Origin: Atractiella rhizophila
Lineage: Eukaryota
Reading direction: 5' to 3'
Length of the DNA stretch: 41,882 bases
NCBI GenBank assembly: GCA_021432655.1
Contig: MU271583.1
Coordinates: 1 to 41,882 of the forward strand
Shown here: piece after piece, positions 24,757-35,736 of the stretch
How positions within the stretch are numbered: position 1 is the stretch's first letter
How the letters are laid out: each line of letters opens with the position of its first letter
The notes under the pieces: generated by a model
Databases searched by the model: none
What the model was told of the DNA's origin: nothing
What the model saw: only the letters and a program-made list of their open reading frames with translations
Program-made: the position numbers and the translations under genes

Positions 24757-27700
24757 TCATCGCCGACGGTAGAACAAGATATAAGCAGAACGAGCCTACG
24801 GTTCAATTGCGTTATTGAAGTTAACAAGGGAAGATGAAGAAGAGAACGCACCTGAACTTTGTCTGCATCGAATGGGATCACTCTGCTATCATCCATATTG
24901 TACCAATCCTGCCTGCTCTTGACGTAGGCAGTGTAATGACCGTTGGACAGATTGCCAAAGTGATTTATGACTCCAAAGAGGTCGTAGTGCAAGCTCTGTG
25001 GCTTAGCACACTCTGGAGGTAGATTCCAAACGGAGCACTCATTCAGGGTCGGTGTAGGTGGCAGGTACGGCGTCATGTCGAGATCCTGGAGTGGATAATG
25101 CACCTGTGTTTCGAGCTTGTCCGTAAACGGCCCTTTGAAAGAGAATCGCTTGAGGTGAATGACCAGAACTTCAGGAAGTTTCGAAAGAGTAAGGTGTTTC
25201 GTTGCTTTCCGTTGCGTCTCGCACTTTGGACAGTTCCTTCTCGACGGGTTAGAAAGAGACGGCAAGACAAAATATATCCCACCATGCATCACCCTTCTCC
25301 ATGATCTCCTCCTTCACAAACAGGTCCAGGCACTGTGTCAGCGTGACTTTGGACAGTTTAGAGTTAGGAACGGGTAGTGAGAGTGTGGTGAACGTGTTGT
25401 AAGTTGTTGATGTCTGTAATGACATCAGTTGATTGTTAGGACGATGGAGGAAGCAATGCGAACTGTGCGACAGGTCAGACACTGAAGCCGATTTCGAAAT
25501 TGTCCTTGGAACAGAGCCACGACAACAGAATGGTTACGCTGTTGATCTAACTGCCACTCCTTCTCAGCAGCAACCTGAGTCGGTAGAGATTCAAGTGCTT
25601 TCTCTCGCTCCGGAGTCATTTCTAGAGCAGGAGGTTTCCGCTGAACTAGGTTAAGATCCTCGTGTAATGCATCCAGAAGAACCGTCAAAAATTCTTGACC
25701 ATCCTGCTGTTCTGTGCCCATGAACTGCTTCGCCACCAAACCAACTCCTTGCTGTGAAAACATTAAGTACGGTTAAGGTTGTGAGAAGAAAAGCAAGCAT
25801 ACTCTGAAGCTGATAGGCGATACATAGCCATATTGTTCTCCCCACATTGCGCGCAGCAACGTTGCAAAAGCATCACTGAGCTGCCCCTTGGTCCCCAGTG
25901 GACTGTACCTGTTGACATGACCTCTCCACGTTCCATCCTTGAAGTAGGTCGCGAAAGGCACTGCTGCACTCAAGCACTGCAGCGTTGCATTCATGTAGCA
26001 AGTATTTCCAAGGTTCTTGAGACCCGTAAAACCAACTGTCGCATCCCACTGCCCACCCTTGAAGCGGCTGACGGCAGACTGCACTGGCCTCGCAACTGAA
26101 ATTGGGGCAGGAGCGCGCATGAGTTGACCATTTGAAGGTGCAGCCATGGGAGGAGGTTGCGGGACGTTCGCTGCAGGGGACGGGACGTTGTGGCGTGAAA
26201 TGGCAGGGTATTCGAAGGCGGCACGAGTAGCTGTGGGATGCGCGTATTCGATGGACGGTTGGACTTCGCCTGTCATTCGACGAGAAACGCTGGGAGGAGT
26301 TGGAGGGGCCCCGTTTAATGGCATCTGCGGTTGGTAGTTTGGTCTTACTTGAGATGGGAGAGAAGGAACAAATGTTTGATAGTCCTGTGAGTTCGATCGG
26401 TATGCAGCGACAGCGGGGATGGTAACAGGAGAGTGGCTTTGGAAGCCGACGCCATTGGGACTGGGGCGAATAGGGTAGTCCTGAGAGCGGTATGGGGAGT
26501 GTGTCGGGCGCGACGCAAGCTATAGGACGTCAATGCTGGGAGTGGGACCAAAGGAATATGCTTACTGCTTCAACAACATTGTGAGCTTGACTTGGAGGCT
26601 GTTGGACATCAGGACTTCCATTCCTTCCATCTACTCCAGTATTCACAACGCTGAACTTCCTCCTCTCCTTCTTGAGCTCATCGGCTCCGCGACCCATATC
26701 GACGCCTCCAACCGACGCCGCGGTTCCCGCTCGCGGTCTTTGAGAAACGCCTTCGACAGCAGCCTGCCCTTCAATCCCATCTGCCCCGACCTTTTTTACC
26801 CAAGCCTCCCATCCGCCAATCAATAGCATCGGCGGTTTCCGTAGGTGTTTCGACATCTCATTCTGCCAGATAATCTGCATTAGATTCCAAACTGCAAGCC
26901 GACATTCGTCCATTTCTGGTCCATGAGGAACATCTCTCGAATTTCGATCGTAGATGACGACATAATCGTAAGTGTGCCTCCGATCGAAAAGACGAGACTC
27001 GGTGATGGGAGACAAGGAGAGGGAACTTTCCAGTTGGTCGGCTGGAACGATTTTCCGCAGGACGAATGGGTCGATGCAGACGGTGTCTCCCTTCATCCTT
27101 CCCCTCTCAAACTCCTCTCTTCGTCTCACATCGATGGCCAAAATCCTTCGAACCCCTTCTCTTCCCGTCAGGCCGACCGAAAGATACTGCCACAAAAGTT
27201 CCGGTAAAATGGAGTTCTGAATCGGGAGATCTGGTAAGCTCTGTGCCCCGCTTCCCGGCGTTGGCAGTTCTCGACGTGGTCGCAGAGCAGGAGAAGAAGG
27301 AAGACCATTCGGTTGAGATTGGGAGGGAGAGTGAGCAAAGTTTCGAGCTGCTTGGACGGCTGATGAAGGTTGATTTGGATAGTGAAAGGGTCTACGTGAA
27401 GGAACCTGTTGGTAAGACGACGTGGAGGGAGGGAGGACGACGTTGGATCCGTTGGAGTTGAAGTTGGGAAACACATCTTCCTCTTCATCCTCCTTCTGCT
27501 GAAGGTCTTGATAGTTTAGATACGAGGGAGGCGGAGGCAAGACGTGAGGTGGAGGAGGTTGATAATCAAAGCCTCGTGGAGGGGGAGGGAGACCTGTTGA
27601 GGGATCGACCGAGGGAATTGAAGGGAGACCCTGTAGAAGAGTAGTTGGAAATCCATCGAGTTCCGTTACATTGTCGATTGGTGTGACAGGTGGATAATCT

Positions 27701-28972
27701 TGAGCGAACTTGACGAGAGAAGGAGTCTCGAATTGGTAGTCGGCGAAATCTGTCTTAATGGTGTTTCGAGTGGGAGGCGAAAGAGGAGGTGAAGGGAGGG
27801 AATCCAGCTGCTCTTGCGCCGCAAGATTAAATGCCTCCTCCCGTATGAACCGCGATGTTCTAGGAGTGGTAGTCGGCGGCGCAGACCCACTTCGTTGGAT
27901 GTCATCGTCCGGGCTGAAGTTGGTCTCTATTGGTGGCGCTCGAGGTCCATTCTCGGTCCTGGGAGTTTGTGGAGGAGGAATGAACGCTTGCCCTTGTCCA
28001 CTACCACCAGTTCTATTAGGAGACGGCAAAGCACTCGGCCCTGGGGAGGAACCAGATGAAGGTTGAGGTGAGGGAGGAAGAAAGTTTGGAGAAGGTGGCT
28101 GCTGATGAAACTCCCGCGGTCCAGCAGGGCTTGGGCTCGTCGGAAAGCCTGATGATGACGGAGCTGGACTTGCGAGAGAGGCAAATTGGGCGCTGGGTGC
28201 CGGACTTGCGGGAGGGACGGGAAGAGGTCGACGACTGCTTGTTGAGGGCGGCTGGATCTTCGGAGGAGGTGCGTTAGTCTTCGACAAGTCTAGCCCAGCT
28301 TGTTCCAGTGAGGTTATTCGACCCGCCAGACTACCCGATATTCGATTCGAGGTGCGCAGTGCCGTAGGTTTGACATTGGGCGGAGGTGGGGAGGAAGGAG
28401 AAGTGGGAGTCGACGCGCCTCTGAGATCGTTCCATGAGCGCGATTCAAAAGAGAGTGCAGTACACACGAGTTCGACATGTAACTATCTACCATACTGTCC
28501 GTGATGTGGACCTCGTCAACAAGACCACGCTCTTTATCTCGGTGTTGCAGCTCTTCTTCAAGGAGTTTGTATGTAGGAATTTGTCTTTGGACGTTCTGTT
28601 GATCCATCTCAGAGAAAGAACGACCTAGAGATTATGTGCATACCCCTTTGAGGTCCACAAAACTCCACCAATCGACAGATTTCCTTGATTGACACTGTTT
28701 GAATTCCTGGTGATTTGGGATCTCCTTCACGATCCTACCTCCAGCCTCAATCCTTCTGCTATCCTACAAGAAAGGTAAGATCGAACGTACTCGAAAACCT
28801 TTCTAAGACAGATATACGCCTCCTCCTTCTCTTCAGTCTGCAACTTGGCGCTAGCAATGTCAAGTAGCCTGTTGCAAGTCTTTATATAACTCTTCAAACC
28901 GAAACCGTTCAAGGTCCTGGCGTCGAAATGGCCTTTCTCCTTGAGTGCTGTAAGCGTGAGCGTACTCGTCAT
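24757..28972 (-). CDS. DOA4: Ubiquitin C-terminal hydrolase Doa4/Ubp4/USP8 (N-terminal MIT-like, rhodanese-like and USP domains); multi-exon
   Basis: GLKNLGNTCYMN Cys box, QQDGQEFL, IHLKRF, HFGNLSNGHYTAY His box, AYILFYRR*; rhodanese-like ILAIDVRRREEFERG. Confidence 0.93.
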
Positions 28973-29103
28973 TTCATCTTTCGTTCGACTGGAGTGGCTG
29001 GTCGTCGTTCTTGGCCCAGGTACGAACGAGCCTTCTTGTCCAACAAATCGCCAGACGCGACGAAATCGACAATTTCTAGTACGGTTACAGCGTGATTAAT
29101 GTC

Positions 29104-32100
29104 ATGGGGAACAACAAGTATCCCCTTCCTCCACCAGACCAGCCTCCTCCGTCCAGAGACGAGCTTCCGAAAGCTATTTTCACCGTAGTTGTCGATGGTG
29201 GTGGAAGGTTCGCGACCTCAGACAGGTCGCTGAACAGCTATGGCTACAGAGGAACAGGAGATTGGAAACGGCCTGCGGGGGAAGCATATATGCAGTACAA
29301 GCCTCCCACTGAACAAGAATTAATGAAGCAAGTGGAATACGACATGGATGAACAAGGTGTGTATCTCGTTACGATCCTCGCACAATGGGTGCCTTGATAT
29401 CGACACTTCTGTAGACGGAGCCTGGTTGGATCTAATGAACAAACAGAGAAAGTCTGCACCCGTTATCTCGCCGGAATTCTTCGAGATTGCCATGGATCGA
29501 CTTGAGAAGGAATGGTTCAAGCTGGTCCGTCTTCCTCTGTCTTCTCTCGTTGTTTCTTTGTCACACTATATGTTGTAGATGGAACTAGTCCCCAAAAAGC
29601 AAGTTCATTTGACAGAAGCCGATTCGAAATGTGCAATCTGTGATGACGGAGACGCAGAGAATTCGAACGCGATCGTCTTTTGTGACGGCTGCAACATTGC
29701 TGTGCATCAGGGTTCATTGCTCAATCTTTCCTTCTCGCGTTCTACATCTGACACTTTAGCGTGTCATAGACTGTTATGGTATTCCCTACGTACCGGAAGG
29801 CCAATGGCTATGTCGAAAGTGTGATCTCAGCCCGGAAGCGCCAGTCTCCTGCGACCTCTGTCCGAACACTTGGGGAGCATATAAACAAACTACGACCGGC
29901 TCTTGGGTTCACCTCATTTGTGCTCTTTGGATTCCAGAAACTACGGTTCAGAATGTCATTTACATGGAGCCGGTCGAGAACGTGGAGAAGATCGACAAGG
30001 CCAGGAAGAACCTACAGTGCGTTATCTGCGGCGGAAAGAAGGAGAAGCCGTGCATACAGTGCTCTGTCAATTCTTGTCGCGTCGCTTTCCACGTCACTTG
30101 CGCGAGAGCAAGGGGATTATACATGAAGCTTGGGATGAAAGTTTCTAGGGAAGAAGGGCAAAAGGATGGAGAGTTAGAATGGGAGAGGATGATTGCGTAT
30201 TGTGAAAAGCATTCGCCGGTCGGTTCATCTCTTCATACATGCAGTCTATTGCGTCTGAACAATGTTCCTTATAGAACGGCCATGCCGTCCCCCCTCTTCC
30301 TCCCGGACAGCACTTCCTCCCTTCTTCCCAACAGCAACGCTTCAACGAAATGAGCGGCGATTCTAAAGCTGCGAGAGCCTACGGCGAAGCGCCAGCCCCC
30401 TCAAGCGAGCCTAAACACCATCCCTTCAACGTTCCGAAATACATCTTTGACAAGGTGTTCGACTATCTCAAACACTTTAAAATGGGTGCGAAAGAGAGAA
30501 AGAACATGCTGCAGCTCGTGTGCAAGTACTGGGGATTGAAGAGAGAGTCAAGAAGGGGAGCAGTGCTTCTCAAACGCTTGCACCTTGAACCGTGGGGAAG
30601 TAGGAATTTCGAGGCCGATGACAAGGAGATTGCCATGAAAAGAAAGGAGTTGGAGAAATTGAGAGGAAATATCGAATCGTTTCGCGCCAATATCCTCACG
30701 AAAGTTCTGGACAGGGATGGACTCAAGCAGCAAGAAGCGGAGGTCCTCAAAAACTTTACGGATAGCCTATTGTTTGCCAAACATCACGCCATGTACAAGG
30801 GAATCGTGGACGCTCTCAAAAAGTGCGCGCTTTATCTTTCCAGGACACATTTCTAACGATAACCTTAAAAGGAACGACAGCTCGAGGTATTTCCATCAAC
30901 CCGTGAACAAAGAGCTTTATCCCAACTATCGGGATATCATTAAACGTCCGATGGACTTTGCGACTATCCTCGATAAGATTTCTCGCCGAGAATACATGAC
31001 AGTGGATGATTTCAAGGCCGATATATTCCTCATATACTCCAACGCTCAAACATTCAACCATTCAGACAATGCTTGTTATCATGCTGCCCAAAGAGGTCGC
31101 GCGAAAGCCATCGAGCTGCTAGGACAACAAGAAAGGAACATAGTATCAGCTCAATTCGACGAAGAGTACCTCAACAAAGTCCTCACCGTTCCTTTCGTTA
31201 AAGAGCTCTTCGCGCCAGGACTCAGCCCAGCTGCACCGATCGATACGCTCCTTCCTGACGTAGCCACTTTCATTGGCAGTGCAGAAAAGCCACTCGAAGG
31301 CGACACGGCTCCGAGCGAGGTGGATGAGACTTTTGCGAAGAAGGGGAAGAAGGGAAGTAAGGTGAAAGGGAAGAGAATGCGTGACAAAGAGGACGACGGC
31401 GCACCGCCAGCAAAGAAGAGGAGGACAGAACAGACAGAGCCTCAGGCGCTCGGCGAGACTCAAACTGCTACGAACAGCCTGTCGGCTGACGACAACGCCG
31501 CATTTAGCAATCGAGTTCGTAAGTCAAAGGCTGATAAGTCGAAAGCACCACGAGATGCCGTAATCCAAGTTGCCCCAGCTGCTCAAGTAAACGCCTCTTT
31601 GGAACACGCACGGGTGGAACAATCCACAATACCAGTTGGCGTTGTTGGAATGGCGGGGACCGCTGACCAGACTATGCTTACGGAGAGAGATTACATTCTC
31701 AATCTCTACGAGGGGAGAAATCTAATTTTGCCTGAAGGGACGAAGAGGGCCAGAAAGAGTGCGTCTCCATTCTAAGCTAGGCATTGTTAACCATGTAGTA
31801 GCTCTCCAGCCAACTACACCAGCACCGTCCCGCAAGATTGCCGCTACAGCCCAGAAACCTACCCCTTCTCATTCTGTGAGCGTGTCGTCTCCTCTTCCTG
31901 CCAACGTTGCCCCTCGTCCTTCTAGTTCTCCGCTGGTTACAAGGTCGCCCCAAAGCGCAAAAGCTCAGGAGGATCAGGAATCATCCGAGCTCTCGGAACC
32001 ATCGAGCGATGACGAGATGGTTCCAAAGACGATACGAGAGACAGTTCCGAAGTCAGGACCTCAGAGTAAGAAGAGGAGATTGACTGCTGACTGGCCGAGT

Positions 32101-33787
32101 CAGAAGAAGAAGTTGCAGAAGCAGGACCATCCTACTGGTTCGTCGGCTTTGCCTTCTCATACTTAATCAAATAGGGATTTCTGTGTAGGGCCGTCTAAAC
32201 CTGGAGCTTCATGGGGGCGAGGTACTTTAACGGGTTTGCCTGACGAACTCCTTTCTCCACAAGGACCTTCTATTTCCCAACCTCTCCCAGTCACATCCCC
32301 GACTCCAGTTATTGCAGGCAGTGCAAACGATCAAATGAAATCGGCTGAAACGTCCCCTCTCTCTTCCCCGAATGACGCGCATTCTGTACTACCAATCATC
32401 GCGCCAACAGGATCTACAACGAGGCCAACTCATGCGGCAGTCAAGGACAGGGAAGAATCTCCTGCCTCTTCATCTTCGCTTTCATCGCTTGAACCTTCGA
32501 CAGAAGTTGGCCTAAGCGATACTCCCGCTTCATTTGCATTCGCCAGTCTCCCAGCCTCCGACGACCCACCCAGCGGCTCTCAGAGTAGAGATGCTCCGAC
32601 GACTCACAAGAGCAAAAATCCACGAAGGAGCACGCGTTCTCTCCTTACTCAGGTAACAGAGAATGATGAGCCGACATCCACTGGCCAACTTGCGTCGACA
32701 TCCAAAATACCGCCGGATCTCGATGCCCCTGCGAATCAACATTCGAAGTCTTCGTCACGACGTCCAACCAGAAGTTCCAGAATTAGCAACAATCTCAACT
32801 TGTCAATCCGTCATTTGTCCAATTTGGACGGTACCGAAGCAATATCAGAACCTCAGAGTGAAAAGTTTCGTTCGCCAACTCCAGCTCCTGTGTCAGCTCC
32901 AGACTTCAATCCGCCCGTCAGCCCACAGAAGCCGGGGAAGAGGATTCCTGAGCTGAAAAAGAAGTACGGTTACTCGGAAAAGCATAACTTCGAGGATGGT
33001 GAGCTAGTATGGGCGAAGCACAACAGCAAACAATACCCTTGGCTCCCGGCGGAAATTGATCATGATTTTGGACACCTACAAGCTCTTCTTGACAAGAAAG
33101 AGAAGTCAGCGGTGCCGCTATATGGCGTCATGTACTTTGACTGGTTGGGTGAGAATCGTCGGACGTCGTTAGTGTTTTTCTACCTTTGAGTCGGTTTCCC
33201 ATACTCAAATATCCCTACAATAGGGACGCGCTGCCTTTGAGAAGCTTGCTCCCTTTTGCAGAAGAAGCGAGCAAAGAAGTTGACGACTATCTCTCCACCG
33301 AAGCAGCTGTTCGCGAGGCCATCCCACTGAAGGGGGCGAAGCTTGAGGAACAGATTGACCACCTAAAAACGGTTTATAAGTGGGCGCTAGAGTTCCTAGC
33401 ATCCGACGAGGAAGACGATGGAGATCAACAACATAAATCGTTCGGTCCTGCTGGACATCGTGATAAAGAGAAGAGAAGGCAACAAGAAAATGGGGAGATC
33501 CGGTCATCCGTCAAGAGGGGTGGACCTGACAGAGGAAGCGACAAAGAAAGATCAAAGCGCAAACATTCGTCCGCCGTTTTTCCATGACTTCTGTGGATCC
33601 TGATTTGTCTTTCACAGGGCTTGTGACGCTTGTCGCCGTTCGAGAAAGGGATGTCGCCGCGATGAGGAAGATGAGGACTTGAGTTGCCTGCCTTGCAAAA
33701 TGTACGTTTCGTTGAAGTACAACGGCTATGCCTAACGTCCTTCGTGATCTTTCCAGGTCCAACAAGAAATGCTCTCTCGCGGTTTAG
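29104..33787 (+). CDS. NTO1: NTO1/BRPF (peregrin)-like histone acetyltransferase scaffold: EPL1-like, PHD-Zn knuckle-PHD, bromodomain, PWWP and predicted C-terminal Zn2Cys6 cluster; multi-exon
   Basis: [70 protein letters not shown]...NAQTFN bromodomain, LVWAK...YPWLPAEI. Introns 33569-33617 and 33702-33756 extend the frame to TAG 33785-33787 (the unspliced stop is at 33587). Confidence 0.88.
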
Positions 33788-34217
33788 GATCTCTCATTCG
33801 ATATGGTGTGCATCATGGAATACGAAGATTCTGTGTTTCCCTTTGTACCTTCTCTCAGTCTTATTCGCTGATTCCTCAGAACCAAGCAATATATTTACCA
33901 TGTTTCCAAATATTTCTCACTGAGTGGAACAAGACGGTAGACAAGAACGGTAACCTGAGGAGATCTGAGAACTTGCTCGATCCAGGACGCTGCTCAGCAA
34001 AGTCCATTGGTTAAGGTCTTGGGAACAGACTGGTGTAGCCTGCATGTACACTGCAATCTGATAGAACTCAGGTGGCTCTATCATTAGTTTTCAAACGAGA
34101 TTCAAAGCCTGTCTCCTAATCATTCCACATATGCACAAGAACATGGGGCGCTGATTTCTGTAGATATATTTTTGATGATTCCTCAGAATGAAACTTCCTG
34201 ATCCAGAAAGGACACAA

Positions 34218-35736
34218 CTAATCATCGTCATCATAATCATAGTCGGCTCCTACGTGCAATCATGAGTTCATAAAGGATTGTCACGGCCGCAAAACTCACC
34301 ATCTGGACTTTCATCTCTGAAGGCTTTCCTGTAATACCCCGCTTCGGAGTCGACATCGCTCTCATCATCCTCATCGTCTTCGCCTTCAGGATAATCGTTG
34401 CGATAGAAATCCTCATCTGCATTCCACCGTCATGGTCAATTCGCAAGACCCAAGTGAGGCGAAGACGCAAGGAGCCATTTGGCATACCATTAGAGTCCTC
34501 ATCTGCTTCATCTGGCGCCTCTTCATCTGTGTCTGCGTTATTCTCGTCGACAAGAATATCCCCGTCTTCAAGGCCCGCACTACCAGTCATTGAGGCTGCT
34601 GCTGCAGGGAAATGAAGGAAAGAGGACGAACACAATCCCAATTCGTTGTAAGCCAGCAAGACTCCCCACATCATTCTGGTCTCCAACATCAGTTGATGCA
34701 GGGGTGAGATCCGGGTAGTAGACGTCGTATACATAGTCCCCTTCTGGAGGGGGAGGAGCCGTGCCTTCTTTTGCCTTGCCCTCTTTCTCCACATCGTCCT
34801 GCACTATAGGTCCACCATCAAATCGCTTAAATCACTTTCGAACATGATGAATAAAAAGAAATAAGGCGCACAGACGAGATATTTCTCGACCATCTCCAAC
34901 AACACTCTGTCCTCCTCTTTCTTCCCCAGCAACTTGACACCCCCTCCCTCTATCCCATCAGTCTCGTCCTCCGCCACAGCATCAATGATCCTCATCTTCC
35001 CGGGTTCCTGTTTGACACCTTCCGGTGAAGGATCATCGATATCCATCGCGATATCCTCGTCTTTCTGTCTGACGACGCGGAAACGCAAGGGACCACTGTT
35101 TGGAGGAGGAGCGATGGGTTTGCCGGGATGTGACTTTAGGATTGGAGCTCGACGGAGAGCTGAAGAGCGCTTATATTTCTTCGTTGGAGGGTCTTCGCTG
35201 GTTGAAGCTGTTGGAAGAGAAGCAAGAGCAGCAGGAGGGGACGACATGGAGGCGGTTGGCGCAGCGGATGGGAGGGACTTTAAGACGGGAGGTTTGAGAA
35301 ACGCCTGGTGAAAGATAAGCCGATTGGAGAGGAAGACATATTTGGACGATATACCTGCATCATTGACTGAGAGCTCATGGCGCTCCATTCGGACTCCTCG
35401 ACTGTCTTTGCAAACTTGTATTTCCTTCCTTCACACAAACCAATTACTTTCCATCCTCGTGTAAATCACCACAGATAAAGTACGCACCATGTTCCAAAGG
35501 GCTCGTCAGTCCTTCTCCTGGCTCATCAGCGGCCAAATCACTCCTGCTACGCTTCACACCCTTCTTCCCAGCTGCATCCTGCAACACTACCGGCCAACAT
35601 GAGCTCATACATCCGAGAAACAACGTGCATACGTCGCACCTAGTGTTTCGAGGGGATTATGGTCTGCTTGTCGCTTGCGCTTGATACGGAGAACGGAGAG
35701 ATAGGCCGGATCTTGTGGAGGGATGGCAGTCGCCAT
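34218..35736 (-). CDS. IWR1: Iwr1-like RNA polymerase II nuclear import factor; multi-exon
   Basis: N-terminal VLRIKRKR, then DYVYDVYY, DEDSN|DEDFYRNDYPE and an acidic tail ending DYDYDDDD*. Confidence 0.82.

What the first reader, a model, noticed from the sequence alone, without database searches (positions are those of the whole stretch)
33541..33787. Hidden Zn(II)2Cys6 DNA-binding cluster fused to the C-terminus of an NTO1/BRPF-like chromatin reader
Seen: removing two ordinary-sized GT-AG introns (33569-33617, 49 nt, branch-like CTGAT; 33702-33756, 55 nt, branch CTAAC) continues the PWWP-containing frame into [45 protein letters not shown]. This is a perfect C-x2-C-x6-C-x10-C-x2-C-x6-C preceded by a basic patch, and it is invisible in the ORF track. 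Known: Nto1/BRPF proteins scaffold MYST acetyltransferases (NuA3, MOZ/MORF) and are targeted through PHD, bromo and PWWP readers, while Gal4-type clusters are usually N-terminal in transcription factors. Inference: this is a HAT scaffold carrying its own sequence-reading module (compare Rsc3/Rsc30 in RSC). I do not recall this architecture being described.
Basis: partly seen in the sequence, partly recalled or inferred. Interest (0 to 1): 0.85.

Follow-up and report, generated by a model that had tools for sequence, protein, structure and literature searches.

The report
Possible zinc-cluster tail on chromatin scaffold
A fungal chromatin-scaffold gene of the BRPF/Nto1 type appears to carry two tiny extra exons that would add a Gal4-like six-cysteine zinc cluster to its tail, but no RNA evidence could be obtained and no relative examined has it.

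Summary
The window is a whole 41,882-nt scaffold of Atractiella rhizophila, a basidiomycete.

**Observation: confirmed.** Removing 33569-33617 (49 nt) and 33702-33756 (55 nt) keeps the PWWP frame open to a stop at 33785-33787. The result is C-x2-C-x6-C-x10-C-x2-C-x6-C after a basic patch.

**For a real feature:**
- The five-Cys core occurs once in the window, against 0.0067 per simulated window.
- Both introns match the gene's other introns in size, donor type, branch motif and T-richness.

**What the gene is:** a BRPF/Nto1-like scaffold (EPL1, PHD-zinc knuckle-PHD, bromodomain, PWWP). The public 700-aa model is truncated; my open model has 1384 aa.

**Against, or untested:**
- No transcript evidence could be obtained.
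- The unspliced exon scores below Pfam's Zn_clus cut-off: 11.2 against 21 bits.
- 0 of 149 best homologues carries the pattern, and 40 of 40 scanned lack Zn_clus.
- No annotated protein holds the exon.
- The cluster has an acidic loop, and no linker or coiled coil follows it.

**Verdict:** probably a real zinc-cluster tail that the relatives examined lack (about 0.55). Its role as a sequence reader is unsupported. Interest is moderate.

The parts
29104..31466 (+). Exons 1-6 of the BRPF/Nto1-like gene as in the public 700-aa model (EPL1, PHD, zf-HC5HC2H, bromodomain). Introns at 29357-29414, 29525-29578, 29712-29769, 30219-30274 and 30823-30871.
   Evidence: Exact spliced mapping of P0001; Pfam; P0001 named 'hypothetical protein BT69DRAFT_688160 [Atractiella rhizophila]'.
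31467..33164 (+). Continuation of the coding region beyond the public model: a low-complexity Ser/Pro-rich linker and the first half of the PWWP. Inferred introns at 31759-31798 (40 nt, GTGCGT) and 32138-32188 (51 nt, GTTCGT).
   Evidence: The frame stays open over exons of 339 and 976 nt. PWWP partial hit 18.7 bits. 28 of 28 homologues carry a C-terminal PWWP in the same protein.
33165..33223 (+). Intron inside the PWWP (59 nt, donor GTCGTT).
   Evidence: The model with this intron scores 46.7 bits against an HMM of 28 homologue C-termini. A 113-nt alternative scores 25.3 bits.
33224..33568 (+). Exon with the second half of the PWWP, a helical segment, an acidic stretch and a Lys/Arg-rich tail. 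If intron 33569-33617 is retained, the protein ends at the TGA at 33585-33587.
33569..33617 (+). Proposed intron 1 (49 nt; donor GTCCGC; CTGAT branch-like motif; pyrimidine-rich acceptor; T 0.41).
   Evidence: The donor resembles GTCCGT (29525) and GTGCGC (30823) of the same gene.
33618..33701 (+). Mini-exon (84 nt) encoding Cys1-Cys5 of the Zn2Cys6-type pattern.
   Evidence: Pfam Zn_clus 11.2 bits, E 0.41, profile 1-24 of 39. LAC9 E 0.27. The Atlas's three nearest clusters are Zn_clus, at 0.85/0.80/0.80.
33702..33756 (+). Proposed intron 2 (55 nt; donor GTACGT; CTAAC; CAG acceptor; T 0.33).
   Evidence: It is the only match to the strict intron motif in 29000-33900.
33757..33787 (+). Last mini-exon (31 nt): completes Met, supplies Cys6 at spacing 6, then four residues and TAG.
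   Evidence: No further intron of comparable quality follows.

Best explanation
The two mini-exons are real. They are spliced, at least in one isoform, to the 3' end of the Atractiella rhizophila BRPF/Nto1-like gene. The result is a protein of about 1384 aa: EPL1, PHD-zinc knuckle-PHD, bromodomain, a long disordered linker, PWWP, a basic patch, and a terminal 33-residue Gal4-type Cys6 cluster.

Shown:
- The motif, the phase-correct introns and their likeness to the gene's other introns.
- The identity of the host gene.
- The absence of the motif from 149 homologues.

Inferred:
- The introns are removed in vivo.
- The six Cys bind two zinc ions.
- The cluster, next to the PWWP and a Lys/Arg patch, adds a DNA contact for the presumed Sas3/MOZ-type acetyltransferase complex.

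Because there is no linker or coiled coil, any DNA reading would be monomeric. That means a single CGG-type half-site at best, as reported for AlcR, or plain non-specific affinity. Retention of intron 1 would give the canonical family C-terminus, so splicing could switch the tail on and off.
For: - Pattern present once, against 0.0067 expected per window.
- Intron 2 is a textbook intron (GTACGT, CTAAC, CAG, 55 nt). Such motifs arise about 2.0 times per strand per 42 kb in simulations.
- Intron 1 (49 nt) is in the right phase, 17 nt before the stop. Its donor GTCCGC is like GTCCGT and GTGCGC elsewhere in the gene.
- The five GT-AG introns of the public model are 49-58 nt long.
- T content: exons 0.16-0.26, other introns 0.31-0.48. 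The Zn exon is 0.24 and the last exon 0.26. The proposed introns are 0.41 and 0.33.
- The Zn-exon ORF has no in-frame ATG and opens just after a stop at 33601-03, so it cannot start a gene of its own.
- Weak family signals: Pfam Zn_clus partial hit, LAC9, Atlas Zn_clus clusters.
- A real intron 115 nt downstream of the 33585 stop would be an unusual 3'-UTR intron (inference).
Against:
- The public annotation does not use these exons, and no protein of 77-2000 aa in the 5.8-billion-cluster database shares three words with the exon.
- 0 of 149 best homologues has the pattern.
- 40 of 40 scanned by Pfam lack Zn_clus, and 38 of those 40 have a PWWP hit. Among the 28 the PWWP hit ends 1 to 158 residues before the C-terminus, mostly under 75. 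The unspliced end therefore fits the family norm.
- Pfam score of the exon is below the cut-off (11.2 vs 21 bits, E 0.41).
- The codon score of the exon is low (-4.9, reached or exceeded by 94.5% of stop-free non-coding windows), probably because of its Cys/Arg-rich make-up. The synonymous-only score is uninformative.
- With bare GT-AG as the only demand, the splice completions are cheap (12% and 69%).
- By inspection, the Pro usually found before Cys4 is absent and the Cys3-Cys4 loop carries six acidic residues (consensus recalled, not from a call).
Confidence: 0.55

Rival explanations
1. Relic or unused exons. The gene ends at the TGA at 33585-33587, like its homologues. The Cys6 mini-exons are then the decayed 5' remnant of a former Zn2Cys6 transcription-factor gene, or a captured fragment, lying in the 3' UTR or intergenic space and not made into protein.
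For: - The unspliced tail, an acidic stretch followed by a basic end, resembles the ends of many homologues.
- No homologue has the cluster.
- No annotated protein holds the exon.
- The exon is below Pfam's cut-off.
- Its codon score looks non-coding.
- Zinc clusters usually sit at the N-terminus of their own genes (passage of PMC4025492).
Against: - Only about 480 nt separate the stop at 33787 from the end of the convergent ORF at about 34268. The rest of such a gene would have had to vanish while the Cys6 pattern, its internal intron and an in-phase upstream intron all stayed intact.
- There is no in-frame ATG for an independent start.
- The T-content alternation fits exon/intron/exon/intron/exon.
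Confidence: 0.3
2. Real spliced tail that acts as a sequence-specific targeting module. On this view the cluster recognises defined CGG-containing sites and recruits the acetyltransferase complex to particular promoters, as Rsc3/Rsc30 do for RSC.
For: - All the evidence for splicing given above.
- A basic patch lies directly upstream of Cys1, and basic residues lie between Cys2 and Cys3.
- Monomeric binding by a zinc-cluster protein is on record: AlcR, cited in PMC4025492 (passages).
Against: - No linker or dimerisation element: the protein ends four residues after Cys6.
- Acidic Cys3-Cys4 loop, and no Pro before Cys4 (inspection; consensus recalled).
- Sub-threshold family score.
- Seen in one species only, so no evidence of selection.
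Confidence: 0.15
3. Pure coincidence: a Cys-rich stretch in non-coding DNA that happens to complete a Cys6 pattern when arbitrary GT-AG pairs are removed.
For: - Bare GT-AG completions are easy: 12% for the sixth Cys and 69% for the upstream link.
- The finding was picked from a very large scan, so rare coincidences are expected somewhere.
- The codon score is low.
Against: - The five-Cys core is expected 0.0067 times per window.
- Both introns carry donor, branch and acceptor signals and the typical length.
- The residues around Cys1-Cys3 follow the family consensus well enough for Pfam, PDB and Atlas each to point to Zn_clus, though each only weakly.
Confidence: 0.07

Closest known systems
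BRPF1-3 (animals) and Nto1 (yeast NuA3): scaffolds of MYST acetyltransferase complexes
   Same: EPL1/Epc-N, PHD-zinc knuckle-PHD, bromodomain and C-terminal PWWP in the same order as 28 of 28 close fungal homologues. This is the BRPF-type layout rather than the shorter yeast Nto1, where the PWWP is supplied by a separate subunit, Pdp3 (recalled; listing).
   Different: It would carry an extra Cys6 cluster after the PWWP, which is not seen in 149 homologues. Association with a Sas3/MOZ enzyme was not tested.
Gal4-type Zn(II)2Cys6 binuclear cluster (Pfam PF00172)
   Same: Cys spacing 2-6-10-2-6. Ala before Cys1, Asp after it, Arg after Cys2. Basic residues between Cys2 and Cys3. A basic patch upstream. 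Weak hits to Zn_clus, LAC9 and Zn_clus clusters.
   Different: C-terminal instead of N-terminal. No linker, coiled coil, middle homology region or activation domain. Acidic Cys3-Cys4 loop without the usual Pro. Below the Pfam cut-off as far as it could be scored.
Ume6 (S. cerevisiae)
   Same: A zinc-cluster protein whose cluster lies near the C-terminus and which brings chromatin-modifying complexes to DNA (recalled, from no call).
   Different: Ume6 is a dedicated DNA-binding recruiter, not a subunit built of histone-reader domains. There is no sequence relation beyond the cluster.
Rsc3/Rsc30 of the RSC remodeller
   Same: Zinc-cluster proteins that are stable subunits of a chromatin complex: the idea of a built-in DNA reader (recalled; named as zinc-cluster genes in PMC4025492).
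   Different: They are separate full-length zinc-cluster proteins with N-terminal clusters, not a tail fused to a reader scaffold.
AlcR (Aspergillus nidulans)
   Same: A Zn2Cys6 domain that binds DNA as a monomer (reference list of PMC4025492). This is the only mode open to a cluster without a dimerisation element.
   Different: AlcR is a classical N-terminal-cluster activator. Its cluster details are recalled, not compared here.

Membership tests
BRPF/Nto1-type MYST scaffold | EPL1 (Epc-N) region | tested here: met
   PF10513 is among the precomputed domains of P0001. The first-exon fragment alone scores 24.9 bits, just under the 25.4 cut-off.
BRPF/Nto1-type MYST scaffold | PHD-zinc knuckle-PHD module | tested here: met
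   zf-HC5HC2H_2 96.5 bits, zf-HC5HC2H 73.2 bits, PHD 25.3 bits.
BRPF/Nto1-type MYST scaffold | Bromodomain | tested here: met
   PF00439 79.8 bits, E 1.5e-22.
BRPF/Nto1-type MYST scaffold | C-terminal PWWP in the same polypeptide | tested here: met
   Partial Pfam hit of 18.7 bits on the first half; the domain is split by an intron. 46.7 bits, E 4.8e-16, against an HMM of 28 homologue C-termini. The open frame links it to the upstream exons through three short inferred introns. Continuity of the transcript is not shown by RNA.
BRPF/Nto1-type MYST scaffold | Binds a MYST acetyltransferase with ING and Eaf6 subunits | not testable with these tools
   No interaction test was run.
Zn(II)2Cys6 binuclear cluster (PF00172) | Six Cys spaced C-x2-C-x6-C-x5-12-C-x2-C-x6-8-C | tested here: met
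   Met only in the spliced translation. Five of the six are in one exon.
Zn(II)2Cys6 binuclear cluster (PF00172) | Score at or above Pfam's gathering cut-off (21 bits) | tested here: inconclusive
   The unspliced 43-aa ORF gives 11.2 bits, E 0.41, covering profile positions 1-24 of 39. The spliced peptide was not scanned, because joined sequences are not accepted by the tools.
Zn(II)2Cys6 binuclear cluster (PF00172) | Conserved Lys/Arg between Cys2 and Cys3, and Pro before Cys4 | tested here: inconclusive
   By inspection, four of the six residues between Cys2 and Cys3 are basic. There is no Pro before Cys4, and the loop has six acidic residues. The consensus is recalled, not from a call.
Zinc-cluster transcription factor (Gal4 class) | Linker plus coiled-coil dimerisation element after the cluster, with regulatory and activation regions | tested here: not met
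   The protein ends four residues after Cys6. No credible further intron follows. The family layout is taken from passages of PMC4025492.
Zinc-cluster transcription factor (Gal4 class) | Zinc-dependent binding to CGG-containing DNA | not testable with these tools
   Needs the recombinant domain.

The most novel reading that the evidence does not exclude
Atractiella makes two isoforms of its NuA3/MOZ-type scaffold by splicing or retaining a 49-nt intron. One has the canonical C-terminus. The other ends in a monomeric, AlcR-like Zn2Cys6 cluster that reads a DNA motif next to the H3K36me-reading PWWP. A histone acetyltransferase complex would then carry its own sequence-specific DNA reader instead of relying on separate transcription factors.
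Probability: 0.12. Interest if true: 0.65.

Novelty: new variant of a known kind. Interest (0 to 1): 0.4.

Why it matters
MYST-scaffold proteins are thought to be aimed at chromatin by histone-mark readers, with sequence information coming from separate factors. A scaffold with a built-in zinc cluster would be a natural experiment in fusing mark reading and DNA reading. It would also be an example of a fungal-specific DNA-binding fold recruited as a C-terminal add-on.

As it stands it is a single-species, unverified gene-model extension. Its immediate practical value is a corrected gene model: about 1384 aa instead of the 700 aa in the public record.

Tried and rejected
- **Whole genome.** None is held for this window, so paralogous zinc-cluster genes in Atractiella could not be searched.
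- **Protein searches with the last large exon and the Zn exon.** The last large exon (33261-33566, longer proteins) gave no hit. The Zn-exon ORF gave no candidate. Both say only that no annotated protein of 180-2000 or 77-2000 aa holds these exons.
- **Metagenome contigs.** An exact search for the 84-nt exon gave 0 matches. An alignment of PWWP halves (A1) was too variable for the search for related loci. P0001 gave 3 loci (L001-L003, 1.3-3.2 kb), none of which reaches the 3' end of the gene. Hidden exons in relatives could therefore not be checked at DNA level.
- **Codon-based coding potential.** The composite score is negative for the Zn exon, but it is confounded by the Cys/Arg-rich composition. 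The synonymous-only score does not separate coding from non-coding here.
- **113-nt PWWP intron (33149-33261).** Rejected in favour of 33165-33223.
- **A third intron extending the protein beyond 33787.** Only a poor GTTTAG donor is available, with extensions of 51 aa or less. Rejected.
- **Earlier notes of this scan.** Nothing was found.
- **Neighbouring ORFs.** No Pfam family.
- **Literature.**
  - Zn2Cys6 + PWWP + bromodomain: 0 papers.
  - Nto1 + BRPF1 + PWWP + fungi: 0 papers.
  - Zn2Cys6 / bromodomain / PHD finger / domain architecture: 146 papers hold at least three of the four terms and 15 were listed. The one listed paper holding all four terms (PMC6804344) was read in passages and is unrelated to a fusion.
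  - Supplements of papers were not consulted.

Full report
**What the window is.** A protein search with the bromodomain ORF returned one hit: a 700-aa NCBI protein named 'hypothetical protein BT69DRAFT_688160 [Atractiella rhizophila]'. It is 98% identical to the query, and its longest contig is 41,882 nt, the length of the window. The window is therefore a whole scaffold of this basidiomycete (Pucciniomycotina, Atractiellomycetes). No whole genome is held for it.

**The observation.** The sequence shows GT at 33569-70 and AG at 33616-17, and GT at 33702-03 and AG at 33755-56. Joining the exons by coordinates in a script gives an open frame. It runs from the Lys/Arg-rich end of the PWWP-containing exon into a pattern C-x2-C-x6-C-x10-C-x2-C-x6-C, then four more residues and TAG at 33785-87. 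Five of the six Cys lie in a contiguous 43-aa ORF (33604-33735); only the sixth depends on intron 2.

**Is it more than chance?**
- The stop-free five-Cys core occurs once in all six frames of the window. It occurs 0.0067 times per window in 300 first-order Markov simulations.
- If any GT...AG of 40-70 nt is allowed, completion of the sixth Cys succeeds in 12% of random flanks (6% more succeed directly). An in-frame link to the upstream ORF succeeds in 69%. The bare splice arithmetic therefore adds little.
- Introns with signals are much rarer. GTRNGT + CTRAY + YAG at 40-70 nt gives 2.0 donors per strand per simulated window (real: 6 and 4). The looser GTNNGY version gives 10.1 (real: 16 and 12).
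- Intron 2 fits the strict form and is the only such match between 29000 and 33900. Intron 1 fits the loose form.
- These definitions were chosen after seeing the data, so the numbers are indicative only.

**Comparison with the gene's own introns.**
- Exact spliced mapping of the public protein gives five GT-AG introns of 58, 54, 58, 56 and 49 nt. Their donors are GTGTGT, GTCCGT, GTTCAT, GTCGGT and GTGCGC.
- The proposed introns are 49 and 55 nt. Their donors are GTCCGC and GTACGT.
- T content is 0.16-0.26 in exons and 0.31-0.48 in the other eight introns. The Zn exon has 0.24 and the last exon 0.26. The proposed introns have 0.41 and 0.33.
- Among 62 GT-AG combinations leaving the last large exon, the 49-nt one is one of two that read through the whole five-Cys core. 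The other is 115 nt long with donor GTCATC.
- The Zn-exon ORF opens right after a stop at 33601-03 and has no in-frame ATG, so it cannot be the first exon of a separate gene as it stands.

**The host gene.**
- Pfam finds EPL1, PHD, zf-HC5HC2H_2 (96.5 bits), a bromodomain (79.8 bits) and a partial PWWP (18.7 bits) in successive ORFs of one strand.
- The public model ends at 700 aa through a 41-nt GC-AG intron followed by four codons. This looks like a prediction artefact, because the frame stays open far beyond it.
- With inferred introns at 31759-31798, 32138-32188 and 33165-33223, the whole gene is open from 29104 to 33787: 11 exons and 1384 aa.
- The 59-nt PWWP intron was chosen by homology. 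Against an HMM built from the last 260 residues of 28 homologues, that model scores 46.7 bits and a 113-nt alternative scores 25.3.
- All 28 close homologues scanned have EPL1, PHD, zf-HC5HC2H, bromodomain and a PWWP in one protein. This supports joining the Atractiella exons into one gene.
- The PWWP hit ends 1 to 158 residues before the C-terminus in those 28, and mostly under 75 residues.

**Conservation.**
- An exhaustive HMMER search with the 700-aa protein found 12,619 homologues at E up to 0.001. The best 150 were listed, one of them the query itself.
- None of the 149 others contains the Cys6 pattern.
- Forty of the 149 were scanned with Pfam: 28 picked among the best-scoring rows and 12 picked for length, between 1615 and 2201 aa. 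None has Zn_clus.
- Many homologues end in an acidic stretch followed by a Lys/Arg-rich tail. The Atractiella protein would end the same way if intron 1 were retained.
- These are predicted proteins, and a predictor could miss such mini-exons as easily there as it did here. Their DNA could not be examined: three metagenome loci related to the gene stop short of its 3' end.
- No annotated protein of 77-2000 aa shares three 5-residue words with the Zn exon. None of 180-2000 aa matches the preceding exon.

**Family signals of the exon.** All are weak, and all point the same way:
- Pfam Zn_clus: 11.2 bits, E 0.41, profile positions 1-24 of 39, below the 21-bit cut-off.
- One PDB match, the LAC9 zinc cluster, at E 0.27.
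- The three nearest ESM Atlas clusters are all Zn(2)-C6 clusters, with scores of 0.85, 0.80 and 0.80. By the tool's own calibration these are leads only.
- Codon statistics do not help. The composite score is low (-4.9), but it reflects the unusual amino-acid make-up. The synonymous-only score does not discriminate.

**Transcript evidence.** Splicing is therefore untested. This is the main gap.

**Mechanism.**
- If spliced, the tail is a complete but bare cluster: a basic patch, six Cys, and four residues to the stop.
- Passages of PMC4025492 state that the cluster is quite often N-terminal. They also state that many zinc-cluster proteins dimerise through a coiled coil after the finger, and that monomeric binding has also been reported (AlcR is cited).
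- Here there is no room for a linker or coiled coil, and no credible further intron. Any DNA reading would thus be monomeric.
- The Cys3-Cys4 loop has six acidic residues and lacks the usual Pro (inspection; consensus recalled). This argues for a divergent module.
- My preferred reading is an auxiliary zinc-stabilised DNA or nucleosome contact beside the PWWP. A true sequence reader is possible but less likely.
- A real intron 2 would sit 115 nt downstream of the 33585 stop in the unspliced form. That is an arrangement expected to destabilise the mRNA in organisms with junction-dependent decay. This mildly favours the spliced form as the productive one (inference).

**Verdict.**
- The gene identity is confirmed and the public model is extended.
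- The fusion is plausible (about 0.55) but unproven, and it is not shared by any homologue examined.
- The functional claim is speculative.
- It would be a new variant of a known kind. Interest is moderate until RNA evidence is in hand.

Noticed in passing
window 31467-31522: The public 700-aa model of this gene (BT69DRAFT_688160) ends through a 41-nt GC-AG intron plus four codons. The frame in fact stays open, and the gene most likely continues for about 2.3 kb to include a PWWP domain (about 1384 aa with the Zn tail, about 1353 aa without it).
   Followed up: yes
window 33165-33223: The PWWP domain is split by a 59-nt intron with an unusual donor (GTCGTT).
   Followed up: yes
window 31799-32990: A linker of about 380 residues, rich in Ser, Pro and Thr and of low complexity, lies between the bromodomain region and the PWWP. 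It has no Pfam match and was not analysed further.
   Followed up: no
window 26530-28482 (-) and 34237-35430 (-): The flanking long ORFs give no Pfam family at E up to 0.01. They are a Pro-rich 650-aa ORF upstream and the convergent ORFs downstream, one with an acidic C-terminus ending near 34268. Their gene models were not worked out.
   Followed up: partly
P0003 and P0088 (homologues): Two long relatives carry four tandem PHD-zf-HC5HC2H modules plus other add-ons: BRK in P0003, and an MSL3 chromodomain-like region at 27.6 bits (just under its 28-bit cut-off) in P0088. P0003 also ends in a Cys-rich stretch. The family therefore does pick up extra modules in some lineages.
   Followed up: no
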